64,000 bases of DNA. It comes from Hypanus sabinus (Eukaryota). The stretch is from positions 44,144,001 to 44,208,000 of the forward strand of contig NC_082721.1 in NCBI RefSeq assembly GCF_030144855.1. The letters run 5' to 3'. Shown in pieces: positions 3,550-58,199 of this stretch (the first letter of the stretch is position 1; each line of letters opens with the position of its first letter). Made by a program: the position numbers and the translations under genes. Under the pieces are notes generated by a model. That model was not told the origin of the DNA. It saw only the letters and a program-made list of their open reading frames with translations, and searched no databases.

Positions 3550-4945
3550 AAAGTACTTTTACATGTAGAAGAATTGAAAAAGGGAGCTATGTTGTTGTGG
3601 CCATTACAGAGACTTGGATGTTGTAGGTGCAGGAATGGCTACTTCATGTGCCAGGCCTTCAATGCTTCAGAACGGCCAGAGAGGGAGGCAAAATAGATGG
3701 ACGTGTGGCACCTTTGATCAGAGTTAATTTCACGGCTACAGAAATGGAGGAGGGGTTGCCTACGAACTCCCTGTGGGTGGAAAATAGGAATAGGAAGGGG
3801 TCAATAACCCTACTGGGTGTTTTCATAGACCACCTAACAGTAAAAGGAACATGACAGAGCAGATAGGGAGACAGAATCTGAAAAGGTGTAATAACAAGGT
3901 TGTTGTGGTCTGCGATTTCAATTTCCCAAATATGGATTGGCATCTCCCTAAACACAGTGGTTTAGATGGGGAGGAGTTTATTAGGTTTGTTAAGGAAGGT
4001 CTCTTGACAAAATATGTAGATAGGCCTAAAAGAGTAGAGGCTGTACTTGATCTGGGATTGAGAAATGAAGCTGGTCAGGTGTCTGGTTTCTCAGTGGGAG
4101 AAAATTTTGGAGATAGTGATCACAATTCTATCTCCTTTACCATAGCATTGGAACTGACAAGTTAGGGAAACGTTCAGTTGGAGTAAGAGGAAATATGAGG
4201 CTATCAGGCAGGAACTTGGAGCATAAATTGGGAACAGATGTTCTCAGGGAAACGTACGGAAGAAATGTGGCAAATGTTCAGGGGATTTTGCATGGGGTTC
4301 TGCATAGGTACATTCCAATGAGACAGGGAAAGGGTGTCAGGGTACAGGAACTGTGGTGTATAAAGGCTGTTGTAAATCTAGTCAAGAAGAAAATAAGATT
4401 ACGAAAGTTTCAAAAAACTAGGTAATTATAGAGATCTAGAAGATTGTATAGATAGTAGGAAGAAACTTATGAAATTAGGAGAGCCAGAAGGCACTTTGAC
4501 AGACAGAATTAAAGAAAACTCCAAGGTATTCTACAAGTATATGAAGAGCAAGAGGATGAGAGACTAGGACCAATCAAGTGTAACAGTGGAAAGTGTGTCT
4601 GGCACCAGAGGAGATAACAGAGGTACTTAATGAATACTCTGCTTCAATACTCACTACGGAAAAGGATCTGAACACTCTGCTTCAGTACTCACTACGGAAA
4701 AGGATCTGAACAATTGTAGGGATGTCTTACAGTGGACTGAAAAGCTTGATCATGTAAATATTAAGGAAGAGGATTTGCTGGAGCTTTTGGAAAGCATCAA
4801 GTTGGAATCAGTCACCAGCACTGGATGGGATGCACCACAGACAAACTGTGGGAAGCGAGGAAGGAGATTGCTGAGCCTCTGGCAATGATCTTTGCATTAT
4901 CAGTGGAGACGTGAGAGGTTCCCGAGGATTGGAGGGTTGCGTATG
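3550..4945 (+). mobile_element. CR1 LINE ORF2 (endonuclease to pre-RT), 5' piece of an interrupted copy
   Basis: Motifs VVVVCDFNFPNMDW, AVLDLGLRNEAGQV, GDSDHNSISF and EIAEPLAMIF..EDWRVA, broken by frameshifts. Confidence 0.88.
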
Positions 4946-5184
4946 TGTCACGAGGAGGGGGGACAAGGGTGCTGGGAGAGGACCCACAAGCAGAACACAA
5001 GCACGTCTTTCTTAGGTCCAAGAAAATAGCGTTTATTACTCACTATACAGAAAAAATTCTGAAATCAAGGAGGACAAAGAGGAACACGGACCTCGGACTG
5101 GGGGACTAGGGACTTGAATCGCCGCAGACCTGGGTCTTGGAAACTGGGAACTGGGATTGCTGCTGCCATGACTTTGACAATCAG

Positions 5185-8100
5185 AACATGGACAGCCGCG
5201 GACCTTGGACTTGGAGAGCGGGAACATGGACAGCCGCGGACCTTGGACTCGGAGAGCGGGAACATGGACAGCCGCGGACCTTGGACTCGGAGAGCGGGAA
5301 CATGGACAGCCGCGGACCTTGGACTCGGAGAGCGGGAACATGGACAGCCGCGGACCTTGGACTCGGAGAGCGGGAACATGGACAGCCGCGGACCTTGGAC
5401 TCGGAGAGCGGGAACATGGACAGCCGCGGACCTTGGACTCGGAGAGCGGGAACATCGACAGCCGCGGACCTTGGACTCGGAGAGCGGGAACATCGACAGC
5501 CGCGGACCTTGGACTCGGAGAGCGGGAACATCGACAGCCGCGGACCTTGGACTCGGAGAGCGGGAACATCGACAGCCGCGGACCTTGGACTCGGAGAGCG
5601 GGAACATCGACAGCCGCGGACCTTGGACTCGGAGAGCGGGAACATCGACAGCCGCGGACCTTGGACTCGGAGAGCGGGAACATCGACAGCCGCGGACCTT
5701 GGACTCGGAGAGCGGGAACATCGACAGCCGCGGACCTTGGACTCGGAGAGCGGGAACATCGACAGCCGCGGACCTTGGACTCGGAGAGCGGGAACATCGA
5801 CAGCCGCGGACCTTGGACTCGGAGAGCGGGAACATCGACAGCCGCGGACCTTGGACTCGGAGAGCGGGAACATCGACAGCCGCGGACCTTGGACTCGGAG
5901 AGCGGGAACATCGACAGCCGCGGACCTTGGACTCGGAGAGCGGGAACATCGACAGCCGCGGACCTTGGAGAGCGGGAACATCGACAGCCGCGGACCTTGG
6001 AGAGCGGGAACATCGACAGCCGCGGACCTTGGAGAGCGGGAACATCGACAGCCGCGGACCTTGGAGAGCGGGAACATCGACAGCCGCGGACCTTGGAGAG
6101 CGGGAACATCGACAGCAGCCGCGGACCTTGGAGAGCGGGAACATCGACAGCCGCGGACCTTGGAGAGCGGGAACATCGACAGCCGCGGACCTTGGAGAGC
6201 GGGAACATCGACAGCCGCGGACCTTGGAGAGCGGGAACATCGACAGCCGCGGACCTTGGAGAGCGGGAACATCGACAGCCGCGGACCTTGGAGAGCGGGA
6301 ACATCGACAGCCGCGGACCTTGGAGAGCGGGAACATCGACAGCCGCGGACCTTGGAGAGCGGGAACATCGACAGCCGCGGACCTTGGAGAGCGGGAACAT
6401 CGACAGCCGCGGACCTTGGAGAGCGGGAACATCGACAGCCGCGGACCTTGGAGAGCGGGAACATCGACAGCCGCGGACCTTGGAGAGCGGGAACATCGAC
6501 AGCCGCGGACCTTGGAGAGCGGGAACATCGACAGCCGCGGACCTTGGAGAGCGGGAACATCGACAGCCGCGGACCTTGGAGAGCGGAACATCGACAGCCG
6601 CGGACCTTGGAGAGCGGGAACATCGACAGCCGCGGACCTTGGAGAGCGGGAACATCGACAGCCGCGGACCTTGGAGAGCGGGAACATCGACAGCCGCGGA
6701 CCTTGGAGAGCGGGAACATCGACAGCCGCGGACCTTGGAGAGCGGGAACATCGACAGCCGCGGACCTTGGAGAGCGGGAACATCGACAGCCGCGGACCTT
6801 GGAGAGCGGGAACATCGACAGCCGCGGACCTTGGAGAGCGGGAACATCGACAGCCGCGGACCTTGGAGAGCGGGAACATCGGACAGCCGCGGACCTTGGA
6901 GAGCGGGAACATGGACAGCCGCGGACCTTGGAGAGCGGGAACATGGACAGCCGCGGACCTTGGAGAGCGGGAACATGGACAGCCGCGGACCTTGGAGAGC
7001 GGGAACATGGACAGCCGCGGACCTTGGAGAGCGGGAACATGGACAGCCGCGGACCTTGGAGAGCGGGAACATGGACAGCCGCGGACCTTGGAGAGCGGGA
7101 ACATGGACAGCCGCGGACCTTGGAGAGCGGGAACATGGACAGCCGCGGACCTTGGAGAGCGGGAACATGGACAGCCGCGGACCTTGGAGAGCGGGAACAT
7201 GGACAGCCGCGGACCTTGGAGAGCGGGAACATGGACAGCCGCGGACCTTGGAGAGCGGGAACATGGACAGCCGCGGACCTTGGAGAGCGGGAACATGGAC
7301 AGCCGCGGACCTTGGAGAGCGGGAACATGGACAGCCGCGGACCTTGGAGAGCGGGAACATGGACAGCCGCGGACCTTGGAGAGCGGGAACATGGACAGCC
7401 GCGGACCTTGGAGAGCGGGAACATGGACAGCCGCGGACCTTGGAGAGCGGGAACATGGACAGCCGCGGACCTTGGAGAGCGGGAACATGGACAGCCGCGG
7501 ACCTTGGAGAGCGGGAACATGACAGCCGCGGACCTTGGAGAGCGGGAACATGGACAGCCGCGGACCTTGGAGAGCGGGAACATGGACAGCCGCGGACCTT
7601 GGAGAGCGGGAACATGGACAGCCGCGGACCTTGGAGAGCGGGAACATCGACAGCCGCGGACCTTGGAGAGCGGGAACATCGACAGCCGCGGACCTTGGAG
7701 AGCGGGAACATCGACAGCCGCGGACCTTGGAGAGCGGGAACATCGACAGCCGCGGACCTTGGAGAGCGGGAACATCGACAGCCGCGGACCTTGGAGAGCG
7801 GGAACATCGACAGCCGCGGACCTTGGAGAGCGGGAACATCGACAGCCGCGGACCTTGGAGAGCGGGAACATCGACAGCCGCGGACCTTGGAGAGCGGGAA
7901 CATCGACAGCCGCGGACCTTGGAGAGCGGGAACATCGACAGCCGCGGACCTTGGAGAGCGGGAACATCGACAGCCGCGGACCTTGGAGAGCGGGAACATC
8001 GACAGCCGCGGACCTTGGAGAGCGGGAACATCGACAGCCGCGGACCTTGGAGAGCGGGAACATCGACAGCCGCGGACCTTGGAGAGCGGGAACATCGACA

Positions 8101-9810
8101 GCCGCGGACCTTGGAGAGCGGGAACATCGACAGCCGCGGACCTTGGAGAGCGGGAACATCGACAGCCGCGGACCTTGGAGAGCGGGAACATCGACAGCCG
8201 CGGACCTTGGAGAGCGGGAACATCGACAGCCGCGGACCTTGGAGAGCGGGAACATCGACAGCCGCGGACCTTGGAGAGCGGGAACATCGACAGCCGCGGA
8301 CCTTGGAGAGCGGGAACATCGACAGCCGCGGACCTTGGAGAGCGGGAACATCGACAGCCGCGGACCTTGGAGAGCGGGAACATCGACAGCCGCGGACCTT
8401 GGAGAGCGGGAACATCGACAGCCGCGGACCTTGGAGAGCGGGAACATCGACAGCCGCGGACCTTGGAGAGCGGGAACATCGACAGCCGCGGACCTTGGAG
8501 AGCGGGAACATCGACAGCCGCGGACCTTGGAGAGCGGGAACATCGACAGCCGCGGACCTTGGAGAGCGGGAACATCGACAGCCGCGGACCTTGGAGAGCG
8601 GGAACATCGACAGCCGCGGACCTTGGAGAGCGGGAACATCGACAGCCGCGGACCTTGGAGAGCGGGAACATCGACAGCCGCGGACCTTGGAGAGCGGGAA
8701 CATCGACAGCCGCGGACCTTGGAGAGCGGGAACATCGACAGCCGCGGACCTTGGAGAGCGGGAACATCGACAGCCGCGGACCTTGGAGAGCGGGAACATC
8801 GACAGCCGCGGACCTTGGAGAGCGGGAACATGGACAGCCGCGGACCTTGGAGAGCGGGAACATCGACAGCCGCGGACCTTGGAGAGCGGGAACATGGACA
8901 GCCGCGGACCTTGGAGAGCGGGAACATGGACAGCCGCGGACCTTGGAGAGCGGGAACATGGACAGCCGCGGACCTTGGAGAGCGGGAACATGGACAGCCG
9001 CGGACCTTGGAGAGCGGGAACATGGACAGCCGCGGACCTTGGAGAGCGGGAACATGGACAGCCGCGGACCTTGGAGAGCGGGAACATGGACAGCCGCGGA
9101 CCTTGGAGAGCGGGAACATGGACAGCCGCGGACCTTGGAGAGCGGGAACATGGACAGCCGCGGACCTTGGAGAGCGGGAACATGGACAGCCGCGGACCTT
9201 GGAGAGCGGGAACATGGACAGCCGCGGACCTTGGAGAGCGGGAACATGGACAGCCGCGGACCTTGGAGAGCGGGAACATGGACAGCCGCGGACCTTGGAG
9301 AGCGGGAACATGGACAGCCGCGGACCTTGGAGAGCGGGAACATGGACAGCCGCGGACCTTGGAGAGCGGGAACATGGACAGCCGCGGACCTTGGAGAGCG
9401 GGAACATGGACAGCCGCGGACCTTGGAGAGCGGGAACATGGACAGCCGCGGACCTTGGAGAGCGGGAACATGGACAGCCGCGGACCTTGGAGAGCGGGAA
9501 CATGGACAGCCGCGGACCTTGGAGAGCGGGAACATGGACAGCCGCGGACCTTGGAGAGCGGGAACATGGACAGCCGCGGACCTTGGAGAGCGGGAACATG
9601 GACAGCCGCGGACCTTGGAGAGCGGGAACATGGACAGCCGCGGACCTTGGAGAGCGGGAACATGGACAGCCGCGGACCTTGGAGAGCGGGAACTTGGACA
9701 GCCGCGGACCTTGGAGAGCGGGAACTTGGACAGCCGCGGACCTTGGAGAGCGGGAACTTGGACAGCCGCGGACCTTGGAGAGCGGGAACATGGACAGCCG
9801 CGGACCTTGG
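5185..9810. repeat. GC-rich tandem satellite: about 20 copies of a 38-bp unit, then about 120 copies of a 32-bp unit
   Basis: The monomer is GACAGCCGCGGACCTTGG(ACTCGG)AGAGCGGGAACAT(C/G). The 32-aa and 38-aa periodicity of the translated ORFs equals three monomers. Confidence 0.98.
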
Positions 9811-9904
9811 AGAGTGGGAACGTGGACAGATGCGGCTATGACTGGGACCCTGGGGACTGGGACTGCCGCGGCCCTTGGACTTTGAGACTAGGACCTTGAT
9901 TCAC

Positions 9905-9990
9905 CGCAGCCAGAAACGTGGACACCATGGATCCTCGTAGCCAGAAACATAGACACCATGGATCGCCATAGCCAGAAACGTGGACACCAA
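9905..9990. repeat. Three diverged ~31-bp repeats flanking the satellite
   Basis: AGCCAGAAAC(G/A)T(G/A)GACACCATGGATC occurs about three times and loosely resembles the satellite monomer. Confidence 0.7.
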
Positions 9991-10501
9991 AACACAGGAC
10001 GAGGAACATTGAGCCCGGACTCCTCCTTCAGATGAAGCATAGAGCCGGAACTTTTCTTCAAGGGGACAGACGCGGACTCAGGGCATGAACATTGAGCGAG
10101 GACTCTGCCTTCTGCTGAGGCACCGAGCCGGGACTCCTCGAGGGGTAGACACAGAAAAAGGGTATGAGCGCCGAGTCAGGACTCCGCCTTCAACTCACCC
10201 CTGGCATCTTGACCTTGCCGGGACCCACTATGGCGAAGGAAAGCGAATTGCTGGTACTCCGATACAGGCTGGATAACTCTGGCTTGTAACGACAGCAACT
10301 TGGTAAGACTTCTTAACACTCTTGCCCCGAATGGCTAAAGCCAGGGGCTGATAAGCTGCCGGTTCGGGTCGAGAGTAGATCACCTTAATTGCCAAGCTCA
10401 AGGGACACGTGAAACAGAATTAGAAGGGAACAACGAGTCAATGGTCCGGATCGTAGCGCAACCTAACTAAATTTAAAGGGAAACAAATCTGGACCATGAC
10501 A

Positions 10502-12203
10502 GTATGTTTTTCCCTTATTCAAGAAAGAGAATAAAGATAGCACTGGAAATTATAGAACAGTGAGTCTTACTTCAGTGGTTGGTAAATTGATGCAGAAGAT
10601 GCTAAGAGCCAGGATTTAAGAACATTTGGAGAGATATAATAAGATTAGGAATAGGCAGCATAGCTTTGTGAAAGGTAAGTCGTGCCTTATGGGCCTGCCT
10701 GTGTTTTTTGAGCATGTGACAGAACACATCAATAAAACTAGAGCCATAGATGTAGTGCATATGGATTTCAGCAAGACATTTGATAAGGTACAACAGGCAA
10801 GGATTATTGAAAAAGTAACAAGGCATGGAATCCAAGGGAGCTTGCTTTGTGGATCCAGAACTGGGTTGCCCACAGAAGGTAAAGTCTCGTTGTAGACAGA
10901 TCATATTCTGCACGGAGGTCAGTGACCAGTGGTGTGCCTCAGGGATATGTTCTAGGACACTGTACTCATCCTGATTTTTATAAATGACCTGGATTAGGAG
11001 GAGGAGAGATGTGTTAGTAAATTTATTGATGACACAAATGTTGTGGGTGTTATGGATAATGTGGAGGACATTAATAGCAAGACGATTGGCAGTGTGCAGG
11101 ATCAGAGGGATCTTGGGGTCCGAGGCCATAGGACACTCAAAGCTGCTACGCAAGTGCTTAAAAAGGAATATGGTGCATTGGGCTACATCAATATTGGGAT
11201 TGAGTTTAAGAGCTGAGAGATAATATTACAGGTTTATAGGACCCTGGTCAGACCCCACTTGGAGTACTCTGCTCAGTTCTGGTCATCTCATTACAGGAAG
11301 GACGAGCAAACCATTAAAAGGGTGCAGAGGAGATGTACAAATATGTTGCCTGGATTGGGGAGCATGCCTTATGGGAATAGGTTGAGTGAACTCAGTCTTT
11401 TCTCCTTGGAGCGACGGAGGATGAGAGGTGACCTGATAGAGGTGTACAAGATAATGAGAGGCATTGATCGTGTGGATAGTCAGAAGCTTGTTGCCAAAAC
11501 TGAAATGGCTAGGACAAGAGGGCAATGTTTTAACCCTTACATACTGTTTATAATCTATTCCTTCACAGTATAGTCCTTGTCAATTTTGACCCAGCCCCTG
11601 AAATCTCTCCTAAGTACCAGATTTTGAATCACAGATCTATTAAGAATGTATAAATGGCCTACCTGATGTTAATAAATGGGTAATCAATCCTTAATTAATG
11701 TTTCAGAGATCTAAAATCCATTTCAACAGATATGGGTCAAATTTGACCTGGAGAAGCCTCTATGTACAAAAATTTGTACCACCTGTACAAATATATAACA
11801 TTTTTAAATATTTTCATTTTTGCACATTTTGGATCACTTTAGGAAAAGTCATCAAATCCCGGCTAAAAATGATAGTTAGGTGATTTTACTGCCGTCGAAT
11901 TTCAAAACGGGTCAAATTCGACCCGGAAATTACGTATGGGTTAAGGTGCTTGGAAGGAGGTACAGAGGAGATGTCAGGGGTGAGTTTTTTATGCAGAGAG
12001 TGGTGAGTGGGTGGAATGGGCTGCCGGGGGCGATGGTGGAGCCGGAAAGGATAGGTCTTTCAAGAGACACCTGGATGGATACATGGAACTTTGAAAAATA
12101 AAGGGCTGTGGGTAAGCCGAGGTAGTTCTGAAGTAAGGACATGATCGGCACAGCTTTGTGGGCCGAAGGGCCTGTATTGTGCTGTAGGTTTTCTATGTTT
12201 CTA
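10502..12203 (+). mobile_element. CR1 LINE RT and 3' end, continuing after the LTR insertion and itself interrupted by a MITE
   Basis: HSFVKGKSCL, DVVHMDFSKTFDKV, LFSLERRRMRGDLIEVYKIM and a (TTCTATG)-like tail near 12190. Confidence 0.9.
11534..11940. mobile_element. piggyBac-type MITE
   Basis: TTAA at 11530-11533 and 11941-11944 flanks CCCTTACATA...TACGTATGGG termini. Internal GGGTCAAATTTGACC palindromes are present. Excision restores the CR1 sequence. Confidence 0.8.
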
Positions 12204-13974: not shown

Positions 13975-14297
13975 TTAACAGTTGGACTGTGTGACTGTTG
14001 CGGATGTTGTCGAAGCCGTTCCGAGATTAACCACGCAGGAGTATACCTTGCCACTACTCCAGTCTGCGCCGGGCACCGTCAGGTAGCTGCTGAGACTGAA
14101 AGTTCTGTCCGTGTTCCGCCTCACTGCGCTGGTTGTCACCTCACGGCTGGTTGGACTCCCGTCCACTGTCCAGCTGACGACAGGGAAGCCCACCGACAGC
14201 TTACTGACCAGGCAAACTAAGGTGCCGGTTCCTTTAGCAGAGATCTCCTTGGCTGACGGCCCAAGCAGTTTCACTGAAGGATCGGGGAGCTGTTGAT
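13975..14297 (-). CDS. Immunoglobulin light chain constant exon (sigma-type CL)
   Basis: Acceptor tcctcttgttccccatccAG precedes 14297. Phase-1 join G|AT gives DQQLPDPSVKLLGPS..TLVCLV..VSW..TFSLSSYL..YSC..SNC-stop, with both Ig cysteines, the Trp and a terminal Cys. LSVGFPVVSW in place of FYP resembles sigma C domains. Confidence 0.93.
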
Positions 14298-15442
14298 CTG
14301 GATGGGGAACAAGAGGAGACATGTGTCAGGTCAATGAAGATCTCGCGATATTTCACAGGTGGATGGTAGTGCGAGAGAAAGATTTCAGCTTCCAAGAATG
14401 CGGCCCAGGGTTTTGTCAGGGTGCAAGTCAGTGTCGCTGGAGGGCAGTGCGCTTTAGTCAACACTGAAGGACGGGACGTTTGTGGCCAAATCCTGCAGAG
14501 TCGCTGGATTACAGCATCACCAGTTCGGTGACATCACTTCCAGCTCTTGGGATCTTCCTCGGCCTGTGCCAACAGTGACACGTTCCTTCCTTTTGTTCCA
14601 TCTACTCATCACCAATGCGCCCCCTCCCACCCGTATCACCCACAACTGTAATGTGAGTAAACCTATTTCTGCGCTTACCCAGAGTGCAGGGCAACTTGTG
14701 CGTGGTCCTGACTTTCACAGAGCTGGTTTAGGGAAGGTGGGTGAAGGAAGTTGGGATTCTCCCCAGACCCAAAGCTCTGGCCTGAGTCTGTTTAGCGACC
14801 GGATTCACTGAGCGGCCGTACCCCAAAAGGAACAGTGCTCAATTGAAAAGGTGGCAGGAGAGAGGCGGGAAGGACGAGGCAATTGGATGGTTGTCTGCGG
14901 GAGTGTTCTACCCTGACCGGCAGAAATGGAAGTTCAATGAAAGTTGGAGGGAGGCTTCACGAGAGCTTCCTCATACAATAACTTGAAACTTGTAGTTCTG
15001 TTGTCTTGACAACCGTGGTCTACATCTTATCCCCAGTGATAACTCGGGACTCATTCTGAGAAGCTGGAAACTCCTCACCCTGACTTCCAACAACCAGAGT
15101 AAAAGCGGCCAAGCTGATAGGATTGAAACCGCGCAAACATCGAGTCGGGCGGACAATTTCAGAAACGAAATATTAAAATACAGATGCCAGGGACACAAAA
15201 TACGGCACCAGAGAGAAAACACAACTGAAAAAAGAGCTTGTTTAAAGAGGATACCAATTCACACACAACTCTACATTCACTTAACACAACTCAATCGTCC
15301 CACGATATGTGGCATGACTGGATCGTAAATTTGCGTTTTCATTAACAAATTCGCCAAGAAAGAATAATGTATCAATGATTAATTGCCAGGTGATTATATT
15401 CATGCAGCTAGTAATTGCAGGTGGGATTTCCCTGTCACTTAC

Positions 15443-15799
15443 CTGTAACGAAGAGCTTGGTCCCCGGGCCGAACGCGAAGCTACTGGGCGATGAAACCCA
15501 TTTTCCGCAGTAATAGACGGCAGCGTCATTCAGGTCCACATTTTTTATGTTTAACTGGTAAACGGTGCCGGCGCTGTTGACTGTCGACGTGAAACGGTCG
15601 CTGCTAAAGCCAGACCCATAAGTCGGGGCGCTGAGCGAGTGATGGTAGTACAGGATCCATTGTGGATCCGTTCCCGGTGTCTGCTTGTACCAAGATACGT
15701 AATAGCTATCCTTTGTTCCGATGTTACATTCAAGCGAGGCTGTGGCTCCTGGACTCACCGACACGGTCGGAGGCTGTGTCAGAGTCTGGGAGTCTCCAG
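15443..15799 (-). CDS. Joined V-J exon of Ig light chain (sigma-type VL plus JL)
   Basis: Acceptor ttttttttacAG at 15801-15800 and donor GTAAGT at 15442. Reads GDSQTLTQPP..LEC..WYKQ..ILYYHHSLSAPTYGSGFSSDRF..DAAVYYCGKWVSSPSSFAFGPGTKLFVT with no stop and no RSS between V and J. The long CDR2 ending GSGFSSDRF is sigma-like. Confidence 0.95.
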
Positions 15800-15906
15800 C
15801 TGTAAAAAAAAAACAGGAATTCAGCTTTAACCATTGATTGTTTAACGTGCCCCCGAAAGCCCACGTCAACAAACGCTGGCGGTGCAGTCATGCCGCCTGT
15901 ACTTAC

Positions 15907-52340: not shown

Positions 52341-53723
52341 GACATGCATCTAAAATAATCATTAGAAGGGATAAGATGAAATATGAAAGCAAGCCAACTA
52401 ACAATATCAAAGTGGATAGTAAAAGCTTTTTCAATAAATAAAAGAGATGAAATTGTACATAGGACCGCTGGAAAATGAGGCCGGAGAAATAATAACGGGG
52501 GGGGGGCAAGAAGATGGCAGATGAACTAAAAGAGTATTTTGTATCAGTCTTCACTGTGGAAGACACTACCAGTGTGCCACATGTTGAAGGGTGTGAGGGA
52601 AGAGAAGTGAGTGCAGTTACTATTACAATGGAGAAGGTGCTTGAAAAGCTGAAAGATCCAAGGGTACACAAGTCACCCGGACCTGAACTGCACACTAGGG
52701 TTCTGAAAGAGGTAGCAGTAGAGATCGTGGAGACATTAGTAATTATCTTTATGCAACCCCTTGGGTCGCCTCAGGCTTGCTCAGCTCGTTCTCGTCTAGG
52801 GGGAGCAGCCTTCGGCCCCGCCAAACTGGGTAATCAGCTGGTGTGGATGTTGTGTGATGTCCCCGCCTCGCCCAAAAACAGACAGTACACCATATGCGAT
52901 TAAATGAGTACAATTTATAAAGGTTACTATAACTAAGTGATTAATAACGATACAGTATATATGAAGAGAAAATTAAAGAAAAGGCGCCAAACTTATCAAA
53001 GTCCAAACCACTTCGTGCACAGCCGTTGGAGCTCAATTACTGAAGTCTTCTGGCCACCATTCGCTCCCCTCCGAACTCCTCGACTCGCAGCTCAGGACCC
53101 TCCGAACTCCTCGACTCGCAGCTCAGGACCCTCCGAACTCCCCGACTCTCCAAACAGCTCAGGACCCTCCGAGTGGTCAACCAAGCACATCTAGCTTCAT
53201 CCCCCCCCCCCCTCCTCGGAGAATCTCCCGGCCTCGGACCCCCCTTTGGGGTCCGATCCTCGCCCAGTTTAGAGCATTGCGTACTCTCTCTCGACCCCCT
53301 CGCGCCGATCTGCCCAAAAGCCCGTCAACAAAAGCTTACAGACTCAGAAGAAAGAACATTAATCCCCATTTGTTTTACAAAGGAATACCATTCTCGTTAT
53401 CAGTAAATTAGCATTCCTGCTAGTTAACAAAAAGAAGAAACCCTCTTTACACTCTCCCTCCACCAAATAAAAGTCATGTCCTCATGACTACTAAATAACT
53501 CGCCACCTTTCCTGCCAACACACCGTAACCCAAGCACAAACAGTGACATCTTCTCCCCACACAGTAACCCTCACGCCCTGTTCCTCAGGCGCTACTTAGG
53601 CCAACTATCTGGGAGTTCCCTAACCCTTCTGAGGCCTCCGTACCTCCTCACCTAAACCCTTCAGGCTCGGACACAACTGGGGATACCTTGGGCCCACTAC
53701 CAACTCCTCTCTCAACCTCTCAC

Positions 53724-56003
53724 TCATGCCCCACACTGCACACAGCTAACCCTCCCCGCTACACCTGACTCAATGGGAGAAGGGCCAAAGGTCTCTTCCT
53801 CAATCGAGGGAAAGTCAGCAAAAGGCAGCATGTACCACACATCCAGCACATCATCCATCGAATCTGTATTCTTCCTCATTCCTGTGATCGGTAGCTGCTG
53901 TTTGATCTTCTCCAAACGGAAACACGTGGCCTGCACTGCTCCCGCAGTCTCTTCAGCCTCCTGTTCAGCATTCACTGCACTTCTCTCCAGCTTTTTCTTC
54001 CTCATGACTTCTTCCAGATCAACTTTCAGGTTTTGCACTTCATTTGAACTGTCGATGGTCACCTTCAGGTTCCCTTCAAGCCTCCGCTTCTCTCTTCTGA
54101 GATTTGTCTGTAATTTCTTCACCTCCGCAAACTCCCCTCTCCGGGTTCTCAGTTTGCTATTACCCTCAGTCAGACAACTTTCTTCATTCTCTCCAACTTG
54201 TAAGTCTTCCGAATGGTTCCAGATCACTTTCTCCAGTCTCTCCATCTTCATTTCAAACTTGGTTCCGTAGAGACAGTCACTCACGAGCTGCGACCTTCGC
54301 CAGCCCTGGCACGTGTCCCGAAAACACTTTAACTCGGTAGTTCTCAGCTGTTCCTGCAAAGACCTCACTTCATATTCTCCTGAGGCAAATCCAAACACCA
54401 AGAGATCATCCACATACACCAAAACTCCAAACGCCTCCACATCCCCTATGGTCTTCCACCTGCCCAGCAGGAAGGTTGCAAGGGCTCCAGATATGCCCTG
54501 TGGCATCTTTTCCGACCCGAAGACTCCTAGGGAATTTATAACGGCCGTCTTCTCCTTGTCGGCCCCACTCATCGGGATCTGGCAACATCCACTCCTCAGA
54601 TCCAGCACCTTAAACCATTTCACACCACTCAGACAGGCCATCGCCTCTCCGGCCCTCAGGGCCATATTTTGGTCACTGACAGTGCGCCTCTTCAACGCAA
54701 TACAATCCACACACACGCTGCCTACGTCTTCCACGGCTTCAGGGGCCAGTCGCCGCAACCTCTCTCTCTCCGAGGTGTCTTCAGCAGTCAACTCCGCTCC
54801 CTCGTGGTATTTCGCAGCGTCCACTAAGAGGGTCTCACCCTCAGATACTTCCCCCAGGCCGTACCGCCACTGGCTCTTGTTTGAATTCGGTATCAGCCCA
54901 ATGCTGCTACACACGTCCACACAAGCAGCTCGAAACTCTGGGTGCATCGACAATGCCTCCAAACAACGCTCACCCGCCTCTTCCGGGCAGGCCCCCAAGC
55001 ACACCAGCAGGATATTGGTTCTCTCTAGAACAGAAACGCTGCCCGTCTCAACAGGGTCCGGACACATCAGCATTAACGATTCATGAACCTCAGTCTCCTC
55101 CACATTTGCCTCCAAGAACTCCATTTTCACTGACCAACAACCGTCGTCTGGATAATCACCGGCACTGGTACCCCGAATCTCCAGTGTCCTCAATGTCGTC
55201 AAGGGTAAATGCTTCCAATAACGGTTATGAAACAAACTGTTCAGCAACTTAACCGGCGCCCCGGTGCCGAGGATGGCTTTAACTTGACTTCCATCCATCC
55301 GTAATAACACCTGTGCGCGTGACCCCTCTAAGCCTTCAGGAATAGAGTCTGTTCCTTTCGGGAGTTCCTTGGTACATTGCTGGGAACGTGCTCCCCCAGA
55401 GACCCCAAGCCGTTCCACCACTGGGCCTCCTCTAAGTTTCCCGACACCTCTCGAATCAACGGAACAACTGATCCCCTTGACAGATCCCCTTGGCACCACA
55501 AGCAATTTATCTGCACCCCTAGGCAAAAAGAGATACCCTAAAAACTTCCCACCAATCTCCTGCCACGGATATGATAAGCCCCCCAGCTGCGGCATTTGAC
55601 TTCCAGTCGAACCACACGCATTTTCCCACACTTTCCCAGAACTGGCAGCGGTCACTTCGAGGTAATTGCGCCCGACAGTTCTAACAAAGTCAGCAGCCCG
55701 CCTACTCAAACTTTCAACCCGTCCCTGTCGCTTTTCCTCAGCCAAGCACTGCCACTCACCCAACAAATGAGGGGTCCGCTCCGCCCACGCCTCCGCCCCT
55801 TTAGGGCTGGACATTATTCCTACAACCGGGTGGAGCTCACCACTGCTGAAACATCCCAACCTGTCACTCCTCACTCTCCAAATAGTACGGACAGCCCATG
55901 GTCCCACCACCATTTCGTCAGCACTAGTCGGAAATCGAACAACGACCTCCAGGCTAGCAACAGCAGCCACCCCACCCAACACACACGTAGCGATAACCAG
56001 CAA
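53724..56003 (-). CDS. Chimeric gag(PNMA-like)-protease-RT-myosin-rod ORF of Gypsy B, probably enzymatically dead
   Basis: 759 aa open. Gag-like [25 protein letters not shown], protease ILGTGA (DTG mutated), RT VLDLRSG..KMPQG..YVDD, then a coiled-coil segment and the family-type C-terminus DVWYMLPFA. Confidence 0.7.
53950..54240 (-). other. Captured myosin heavy-chain rod fragment (MYH16-like) inside Gypsy B
   Basis: [74 protein letters not shown] parallels the remembered sarcomeric MYH rod (DDLQ.EEDKVN.LTK.NSKL.T..KRKLEGDLK.TIDNLNEME..KLDLEEV.KK..LE..SVN). Confidence 0.7.
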
Positions 56004-58199
56004 TCACACACCCACAAAGGCACACCAACTCTTCGCCGCAGACACAATCCAAAGAGGGCGATCCCACAGCTTCCACAGAAGTCAACCCCGGACGAGCACC
56101 CCACAATGTAACCCCTTGGGTCGCCTCAGGCTCGCTCAGCTCGTTCTCGTCTAGGGGGAGCAGCCTTCGGCCCCGCCAAACTGGGTAATCAGCTGGTGTG
56201 GATGCTGTGTGATGTCCCCGCCTCGCCCAAAAACAGACAGTACACCATATGCGATTAAATGAGTACAATTTATAAAGGTTACTATAACTAAGTGATTAAT
56301 AACGATACAGTATATATGAAGAGAAAATTAAAGAAAAGGCGCCAAACTTATCAAAGTCCAAACCACTTCGTGCACAGCCGTTGGAGCTCAATTACTGAAG
56401 TCTTCTGGCCACCATTCGATCCCCTCCGAACTCCTCGACTCGCAGCTCAGGACCCTCCGAACTCCTCGATTCTCCAAACAGCTCAGGACCCTCCGAATGG
56501 TCAACCAAGCACATCTAGCTTCATTCCCCCCCCCCCCTCCTCGGAGAATCTCCCGGCCTCGGACCCCCCTTTGGGGTCCGATCCTCGCCCAGTTTAGAGC
56601 ATTGCGTCCTCTCTCTCGACCCCCTCGCGCCGATCTGCCCAAAAGCCCGTCAACAAAAGCTTACAGACTCAGAAGAAAGAACATTAATCCCCATTTGTTT
56701 TACGAAGGAATACCATTCTCGTTATCAGTAAATTAGCATTCCTGCTAGTTAACAAAAAGAAGAAACCCTCTTTACATTTATAAAGTCATTGGACTCTGGC
56801 ATAGTGCCAGACAACTGGAAAATTGAAAATGTCACTCACTCTCTAAGAAAGGAGGAAGGCAGCAGAAAGAAAATCATAGAGCAGTTTACCAGATCTCAGA
56901 GGTTGGGATTTTGTTAGAGTCGATTGTTAAGGATGAGGTTATGGAGTACTTGGTGACCCAGGACAAGATAGGTCAGTCAGCAAGGCTTCCTTAAGGTAAA
57001 ATGTTGCCAGATGAACCTGTTGGAATTCTTTGAGGAGATTATACGGGGGATGGTGCGGATGTTATATCTTTGGACTTTCAGAAGGCCTTTGACAAGATGC
57101 CCCACATGAGTCTGCTTACCAAGTTAAGAACCCATGGCATTACAGGAAATTTACTAACATGGTTAGATTATTGGCTGATTTGTAGGATGCAGCGAGTGGA
57201 AATAACTCCTCAGGGTTTGGTGCTGGGAGTACTTCCTTTTAAGCTGTATATCAGTGAGTTACATGATGGAATAGGTAGCTTTGTTGCCAAGTTTGCAGAT
57301 AATTGGTGCATGGGTAGGTAGTGTTGAGGAAACAGGTAGGTTGTAGATGGTCTCAGACAGATCAGGAAAATGGGCAAGAGATCGGCAAATACAATACAAT
57401 GTTGAAAAATGCATGGTCATGCACTTTGGTAGTAGAAATAAATCTGCAGACTATTTTCTAAAAGGGGAGAAAATCCAAAAATATTAGTTGCAAAGGAACT
57501 TGGTAGTCCTTGTACAGAACAACCTAAAGGATAACTAGCAGGTAGATGAGGTGCTGAAGGCAAATGCAATGTTAGCATTCATTTCAAGTAGTCTAGAATA
57601 CAAGAGCAGGGATGTGATGCTGAGGCTTAATAAGCTATTGATGAGGCCTCAGAATATTGATGTATTCCGAACAGTTTTAGGCTTCTTATCTTGGGAAAGG
57701 TGCTAGCATTAAAGAGGGTTCAGAGGAGGTTAACAAGGATGATTTTGGGAATGAAAGGTTTATCATACGAAGAACATTGGATAGCTCTGGATCTGGACTC
57801 GCTGGAATTTAGAAGGATGAGGGGAGGATCACGCTGAAACTTTTCAAATGTTGAATGGAATAGATGAGGAAGGGATGTTTCCAGTGGTGGGGGACTCTGG
57901 GACAAGAGGGCACACCCTCAGGATTGCGGGGCATCCTTTTAAAACAGAGGTGCAGAGAAATGTCTTTAGCCAGAGAATGGTGAGTTTGTGGAATGCGTTA
58001 TCTCAGGCAGCTGTGGAGGCCAGGTCGTTGAATATATTTACTGCAGAGCTTGATAGGTTCTTGATTGGACATGGCAGCAAAGGTTACTGGGCAAAGGCCG
58101 GAGAGTGGGGCTAATGAGGGGAAAAATTGAATGGTGGAGCAGACTTGATGGGCCAAGTGGCCTAATTCTTCTCCTGTGTCTTATGGTCTGTGGTCTTAT

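What the first reader, a model, noticed from the sequence alone, without database searches (positions are those of the whole stretch)
4946..10501. A satellite born inside a solo LTR: about 0.9 kb of LTR inflated to 5.56 kb
Seen: exact insertion boundaries (TSD GTATG, TGTCA..TGACA termini, CR1 frame restored on removal) enclose a 4.6-kb array. Diverged proto-monomers lie at both edges (5090-5185 and 9810-9990). The two unique ends are not direct repeats, so this looks like one LTR rather than a full element. Inference: a few LTR-internal repeats underwent runaway local amplification after insertion, giving a snapshot of de novo satellite birth about 3.5 kb downstream of an Ig gene.
Basis: partly seen in the sequence, partly recalled or inferred. 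Interest (0 to 1): 0.7.

Follow-up and report, generated by a model that had tools for sequence, protein, structure and literature searches.

The report
Jumping-gene end that seeds long minisatellites
A leftover end-piece (solo LTR) of a jumping gene beside an antibody gene carries a short repeat present in 140 copies, which likely multiplied long after the piece landed; many sister copies in the same genome show the same swelling, some larger, so this is an ordinary member of a repeat-prone family.

Summary
Positions 4946-10501 are a minus-strand solo LTR with target duplication GTATG, TGTCA…TGACA ends and 140 units of 32/38 bp. A paralogous Ig light-chain cluster shows the empty site. The 'de novo satellite birth' reading is overstated. 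The LTR belongs to a family of several hundred copies (median about 1.0 kb) that carries 2-4 units of this repeat plus three other repeat slots (31, 49, 79-82 bp), and each slot swells independently. In a sample picked without regard to length, 7 of 38 copies exceed 1.5 kb through an array. Elsewhere copies reach 6.6, 7.3 and 8.2 kb, and one array is 17.6 kb with higher-order blocks. In 5 of 6 two-LTR copies the paired LTRs differ strongly (864 vs 7,265 bp at most), which points to growth after insertion. The exact unit variant here is private to this locus. The family looks like a non-autonomous Tf1/sushi-type chromovirus derivative with a predicted self-priming site; the arrays would lie in R. 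No reads were available, so the array's length is unverified. Verdict: an LTR-derived minisatellite in the upper tail of a hypervariable family, a known kind of process.

The parts
4941..4945 (+). Left copy of the 5-bp target-site duplication GTATG
   Evidence: a single GTATG at the empty paralogous site L205
4946..10501 (-). Solo LTR (sense = minus strand), TGTCATG…CGTGACA, 5,556 bp
   Evidence: orientation from PBS and PPT flanks in two-LTR siblings
5032..5037 (-). AATAAA poly(A) signal, inferred R/U5 boundary region
   Evidence: only AATAAA on the element's sense strand; function inferred
5090..5194 (-). Degenerate, unhomogenised units at the left array edge
   Evidence: score 60 against shuffle maximum 38
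5195..5954 (-). 20 units of 38 bp (the family-length unit with private changes)
5955..9796 (-). About 120 units of 32 bp (6-bp deletion form) in alternating blocks of two SNP variants
   Evidence: 27-mer private to this locus
9797..9905 (-). Degenerate units at the right array edge
   Evidence: score 81 against shuffle maximum 38
9908..9989 (-). Second repeat slot, 31 bp x 2.6; expanded to 114 and 163 copies in siblings L045 and L058
10000..10200 (-). Third repeat slot, 79-82 bp, about 2.5 degenerate copies; up to 18 copies in sibling L041
   Evidence: boundaries approximate
10315..10326 (-). Predicted self-primer and 5' end of R, complementary to the family's PBS
   Evidence: 11 of 12 pairs here; 11-12 of 12 in 7 of 8 family copies
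10348..10354 (-). TATA-like box, changed in this copy (TTATCAG; most siblings TTATAAG)
10502..10506 (+). Right copy of the target-site duplication GTATG
4000..11570 (+). Decayed host LINE (CR1/L2-like, label recalled) interrupted by the LTR; outer ends not mapped
   Evidence: weak RVT_1 match E 1.7e-4, below the curated cut-off; uninterrupted in paralogs L204 and L205
13975..15887 (-). Neighbouring Ig light-chain gene: V and J in one open frame (15435-15887) and C exon (13975-14325); context only
   Evidence: V-set E 5e-20, C1-set E 4e-16

Best explanation
This is a solo LTR from a several-hundred-copy retrotransposon family whose LTR carries a few short tandem units, and here one of those units stands in 140 copies, likely through slippage and unequal exchange long after insertion. 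Shown: the boundaries, the empty paralogous site, the family, four repeat slots that vary independently, and unequal paired LTRs. Inferred steps: (1) a non-autonomous, likely self-priming Tf1/sushi-type element with about 1-kb LTRs and a 250-290-bp interior inserted into a LINE after the Ig cluster had duplicated; (2) LTR-LTR recombination likely left one LTR between the target duplications; (3) a 38-bp unit gained private substitutions and amplified, a 6-bp slip between two similar hexamers gave the 32-bp form, and out-of-register exchange or conversion spread two SNP variants in blocks; (4) edge units escaped homogenisation. The array is most likely neutral.
For: TSD, termini and unit map. 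Empty site in 2 of 6 paralogous Ig loci and no LTR match in any of the 6; flanks 81-86% identical; the right junction is unique. 58 two-ended siblings: median 1,064 bp, 15 over 1.5 kb, 6 over 3 kb, 2 over 5,556 bp; exact 5-bp TSD in 37 of 58. Further copies of 8.2 kb and a 17.6-kb array of 465 units. Length-blind sample of 40, 38 two-ended: median 1,017 bp, 7 over 1.5 kb and 3 over 3 kb through arrays. Paired LTRs 1289/887, 808/1749, 869/1474, 1919/954, about 864/7265 and 781/754; 3 of the 6 pairs have matching TSDs. Array 99% uniform against ends at most 91.6% like the nearest sampled sibling. Repeated multi-unit blocks in the L044 and L056 arrays. Precedent: PMC466953, PMC7004042, PMC6947457.
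Against: No reads hold this locus (best share 0.20), so length and block order rest on one assembly. One unit at an A/B block junction carries both variant letters and two others have single-base deletions, which could be consensus errors. This array is unusually pure and CpG-rich (4.2 CpG per 38 bp; only L075 is similar), which is unexplained. Only 6 of 22 loci examined gave a measurable LTR pair, and 3 of those lack a matching TSD at the computed ends. No copy with this LTR and coding domains was found. Slippage against unequal exchange was not distinguished at this locus.
Confidence: 0.82

Rival explanations
1. The array is real but its length or block pattern is partly an assembly product (two alleles stitched or over-extended).
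For: A hybrid unit at the 6853 block junction and single-base indels; extreme purity; no independent reads.
Against: The same assembly resolves a 17.6-kb sibling array with 54 distinct units in repeated higher-order blocks and no Ns. Variants change in orderly blocks, with ancestral-type units at both edges.
Confidence: 0.1
2. The long array arose during reverse transcription (out-of-register strand transfer within R) and was inserted already long.
For: The slots lie between the predicted start (10326) and the poly(A) signal (5037), where strand transfer occurs. Such transfers are hypothesised for Ogre repeats (PMC7004042, Discussion).
Against: That route gives two equal LTRs, yet 5 of 6 pairs differ. 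Units inserted with the LTR should have diverged as its ends have, but they are 99% alike. No other locus has this unit variant.
Confidence: 0.04
3. De novo satellite birth special to this locus, possibly favoured by or acting on the Ig light-chain gene.
For: Private unit variant; upper few percent of family lengths; 3.5 kb from an Ig gene; a CpG-rich 4.6-kb block.
Against: The unit is a family feature. Longer arrays occur at other sites on several contigs. The variant has not dispersed. Six paralogous Ig loci lack the LTR. This copy's TATA is changed.
Confidence: 0.04

Closest known systems
Human LTR10A/F VNTR (PMC466953; passages read)
   Same: LTR-internal tandem unit of about 30 bp, variable across copies, with expansions of several kb (one predicted over 11.6 kb in a tumour)
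   Different: LTR10 is an ERV LTR and its unit holds an AP1 motif with shown enhancer activity. Here the element is Ty3/gypsy-like, has four slots, the kb-scale arrays are in the reference assembly, and no function is shown.
Ogre retrotransposon-derived satellites of Lathyrus (PMC7004042; abstract and Discussion read)
   Same: Short element-borne arrays dispersed by transposition that occasionally expand; a continuum from short to long arrays
   Different: Those lie in the 3' UTR, not the LTR, and reach true satellite size in pericentromeres. Here the longest seen is 17.6 kb and the genome total is small.
Mouse Ms6-hm minisatellite in a MaLR LTR (listed in review PMC6947457; passages read; original not seen)
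   Same: Vertebrate minisatellite expanded inside a retrotransposon LTR
   Different: Much shorter unit (recalled) and a different LTR class
Tf1/sushi chromoviruses (PMC6317226 and bioRxiv 10.1101/2022.12.06.519325; passages read)
   Same: PBS complementary to a site just after the TATA box; interior starts with an MDPA-like gag start and ends like the integrase-chromodomain elements of this genome, which share the PPT and first LTR bases
   Different: No coding copy with this LTR was found; interiors are 250-290 bp (non-autonomous, TRIM-like, but with about 1-kb LTRs)

Membership tests
Solo LTR | TG…CA termini flanked by a 4-6-bp target duplication | tested here: met
Solo LTR | The same unit occurs as paired direct repeats around a PBS…PPT interior elsewhere | tested here: met
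   6 pairs, 3 with matching TSDs
Tf1/sushi chromovirus group | Self-priming: PBS complementary to the transcript's 5' end | tested here: met
   In sequence only: 11-12 of 12 pairs at TATA+26-28 in 7 of 8 family copies (one scored 9); shuffled PBS reached 11 in 2 of 20,000; 9 loci of other families scored 7-9. Start site not mapped.
Tf1/sushi chromovirus group | Three-duplex 'pretzel' RNA structure | not tested
   Only the central duplex was scored
Tf1/sushi chromovirus group | Integrase with C-terminal chromodomain in the same element | tested here: inconclusive
   rve, SH3_Tf2-1 and Chromo were found in elements sharing the PPT and LTR start, but their LTR bodies do not match this family
Tf1/sushi chromovirus group | RT phylogeny within the clade | not tested
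   No RT is linked to this LTR
Classical satellite DNA | Very long arrays (hundreds of kb or more), high genomic abundance | tested here: not met
   4.6 kb here; 2,154 exact family-unit motifs genome-wide; unassembled blocks cannot be excluded
Minisatellite / VNTR | Unit of 10-100 bp in a kb-scale, locus-specific array | tested here: met
Minisatellite / VNTR | Allelic length variation between individuals | not testable with these tools
   No run holds the locus

The most novel reading that the evidence does not exclude
An undescribed self-priming LTR family of cartilaginous fish acts as a genome-wide seed bank of four repeat units placed in R. Hundreds of dated, dispersed copies show every stage from 2 units to 17-kb arrays with higher-order repeats, so the family is a vertebrate natural experiment on where and how satellites begin, with paired LTRs as internal controls.
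Probability: 0.5. Interest if true: 0.45.

Novelty: new member of a known kind. Interest (0 to 1): 0.3.

Why it matters
The single locus is ordinary. The family is a useful system: identical starting units at hundreds of sites, two-LTR copies that fix the starting state, and paralogous empty sites let one measure how chromosomal position, recombination and unit sequence govern array growth and the onset of higher-order repeats in a vertebrate. It also supplies hypervariable markers, one inside an Ig light-chain cluster.

Tried and rejected
(1) GC-biased conversion as a general driver: across 60 LTRs, array length did not correlate with GC (rho -0.10, p 0.43), and CpG density fell with length (rho -0.36, p 0.005). 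Rejected as a family rule; this array and L075 are CpG-rich exceptions. (2) DNA transposon or MITE with short inverted ends: rejected, because the inverted repeat is only about 6 bp and paired copies with PBS and PPT exist. (3) Autonomous partner with the same LTR: none among 21 PPT hits, 30 of 51 gag-start hits or 6 PBS hits. (4) The first self-priming control (best match over 400 shuffled bases) did not discriminate; it was replaced by a position-restricted test. (5) Public runs: 14 listed, best share 0.20. Four were laid: they carry family-like pieces, one 144-bp piece identical to 9850-9993, but no listed piece bridges the junction or the array, so they say nothing on length. (6) Earlier scan findings: none. 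(7) Two long copies in the length-blind sample (L186, L190) were dropped from the array count because they hold non-tandem inserts, and 2 of 40 lacked a U3 end. The 58-copy sample is similarity-ranked and includes segmental duplicates (L064/L065; L009/L010/L053). (8) Literature: one search for elasmobranch + LTR retrotransposon + satellite DNA + tandem repeats returned 0 papers. Repbase and Dfam could not be searched, so the family may already be catalogued. No supplements were opened.

Full report
Observation. The element spans 4946-10501 (5,556 bp) between two GTATG copies and ends TGTCA…TGACA. TRF gives one array at 5210-9829 (period 32, 140.8 copies, 99% matches) and a small 31-bp array at 9908-9989. 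Parsed units are 20 of 38 bp on the left, then about 120 of 32 bp. Two SNP variants run in blocks across both lengths, with four single-unit indels. The edge segments 5090-5185 and 9810-9905 are degenerate units; 9906-9990 is not better than shuffles and is a separate slot. The host LINE frame continues across the insertion point.

Insertion. The neighbour is an Ig light-chain gene with V and J in one frame and a C exon whose stop lies 3,474 bp away. Germline-joined light chains are known in skates (PMC2192082, abstract), so a cartilaginous fish is inferred. The gene is one of 19 long matches within 1.2 Mb of the same contig. Of six paralogous loci fetched, two retain the same LINE without the insertion (L205 reads a single GTATG; flanks 81-86% identical) and none matches the LTR. 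The right junction is unique in the genome. The LTR therefore landed after the clusters duplicated.

Family. The two unique ends gave 1,013 and 599 first-look candidates. A 23-bp U5 motif occurs 202 times and is present in 31 of 58 sampled copies, so roughly 380 copies or more exist. Among 62 similarity-ranked loci, 58 two-ended copies have median 1,064 bp; 15 exceed 1.5 kb, 6 exceed 3 kb and 2 exceed this copy; 37 have exact 5-bp duplications. Two open-ended loci extend to an 8.2-kb copy and a 17.6-kb, 465-unit array whose U3 end is missing. In 40 copies picked by motif position alone, 38 were two-ended (median 1,017 bp); 9 exceed 1.5 kb, 7 of them through arrays, and none reaches 5.5 kb through an array. 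This copy is thus in the upper few percent but is not the extreme. Four slots expand independently: 32/38 bp, 31 bp (to 163 copies), 79-82 bp (to 18) and 49 bp (to 44).

Timing. A two-LTR form exists with a 250-290-bp interior (41 matches to the interior). The two LTRs of an element are identical at integration (established knowledge). Of 22 loci examined, six gave measurable pairs and five differ strongly: 1289/887, 808/1749, 869/1474, 1919/954 and about 864/7265; one is 781/754. Three pairs have matching target duplications. This copy's ends are at most 91.6% like any sampled sibling while its units are 99% alike. All 116 genome matches of its 27-mer lie in this array. Growth was local and recent relative to insertion, and it has not spread.

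Class of element. On the minus strand the interior starts with a PBS and an MDPA-like gag start and ends in a purine tract. The PBS pairs at 11-12 of 12 positions with a site 26-28 nt after the TATA box in 7 of 8 family copies; shuffled PBSs reached 11 in 2 of 20,000; nine loci of other families scored only 7-9. Self-priming is the mark of Tf1/sushi chromoviruses (PMC6317226 and bioRxiv 10.1101/2022.12.06.519325, passages). Elements sharing the purine tract and first LTR bases encode rve, SH3_Tf2-1 and Chromo domains, but their LTR bodies differ. So the family works like a non-autonomous sushi-type element; membership is likely but not shown by RT. With the start near 10326 and AATAAA at 5037, the repeat slots would lie in R. 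This copy's TATA is changed.

Mechanism. Small copy differences may arise at birth by out-of-register strand transfer in R (inference). The solo state likely came from LTR-LTR recombination. The kb-scale growth is best explained by slippage plus unequal exchange or conversion: one SNP crosses the 38/32 boundary, variants form blocks, edges stay degenerate, and the L044 and L056 arrays repeat blocks of tens of units. GC-biased conversion is not a family rule.

Against. No run holds the locus. A hybrid unit at a block junction and the unusual purity leave room for assembly error in length or order, although the assembly resolves a more complex 17.6-kb sibling array without gaps.

Comparison. Only 2,154 exact family-unit motifs are assembled, 290 of them in one array, so this is a minisatellite system and not a classical satellite. 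LTR- or retrotransposon-borne repeats that expand are documented: human LTR10 (PMC466953, passages), Ogre-derived satellites (PMC7004042, abstract and Discussion) and mouse Ms6-hm (PMC6947457, passages). One search found no paper on an elasmobranch case; repeat libraries were not searchable.

Verdict. Real feature, largely correct anatomy, known kind of process. The interest lies in the family as a natural experiment, not in this locus. Interest 0.3.

Noticed in passing
window 52752-56776 (minus strand): A second, unrelated two-LTR element with pol-like interior: LTRs of 700 and 670 bp, 98.8% identical, 4-bp duplication TTTA. The LTRs differ by about one 31-bp unit, so repeat change begins even in a young element.
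   Followed up: partly
window 13975-15887; G000:C35 42.94-44.16 Mb: Tandem run of about 19 Ig light-chain clusters; this one has V and J joined in the germline.
   Followed up: partly
L056 and L080-L081 (G000:C35 about 45.03-45.05 Mb): 17.6-kb array of the 38-bp unit with higher-order blocks of tens of units, the most satellite-like family member seen; its U3 end is lost.
   Followed up: partly
L075: 6.4-kb array, 160 of 167 units identical and CpG-rich like the window's. The two purest long arrays both gained TG-to-CG changes; unexplained.
   Followed up: partly
L132-L143 (G000:C1 9.28-10.51 Mb) and G000:C25 11.6-13.4 Mb: Related short-interior LTR elements recur at roughly 90-100-kb spacing, suggesting large tandem segmental repeats.
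   Followed up: no
L131: A 501-codon open frame made of a 15-residue repeat derived from integrase-region sequence of a chromovirus-like element.
   Followed up: no
window 4631-4712: 38-bp tandem duplication inside the host LINE, unrelated to the LTR unit.
   Followed up: no
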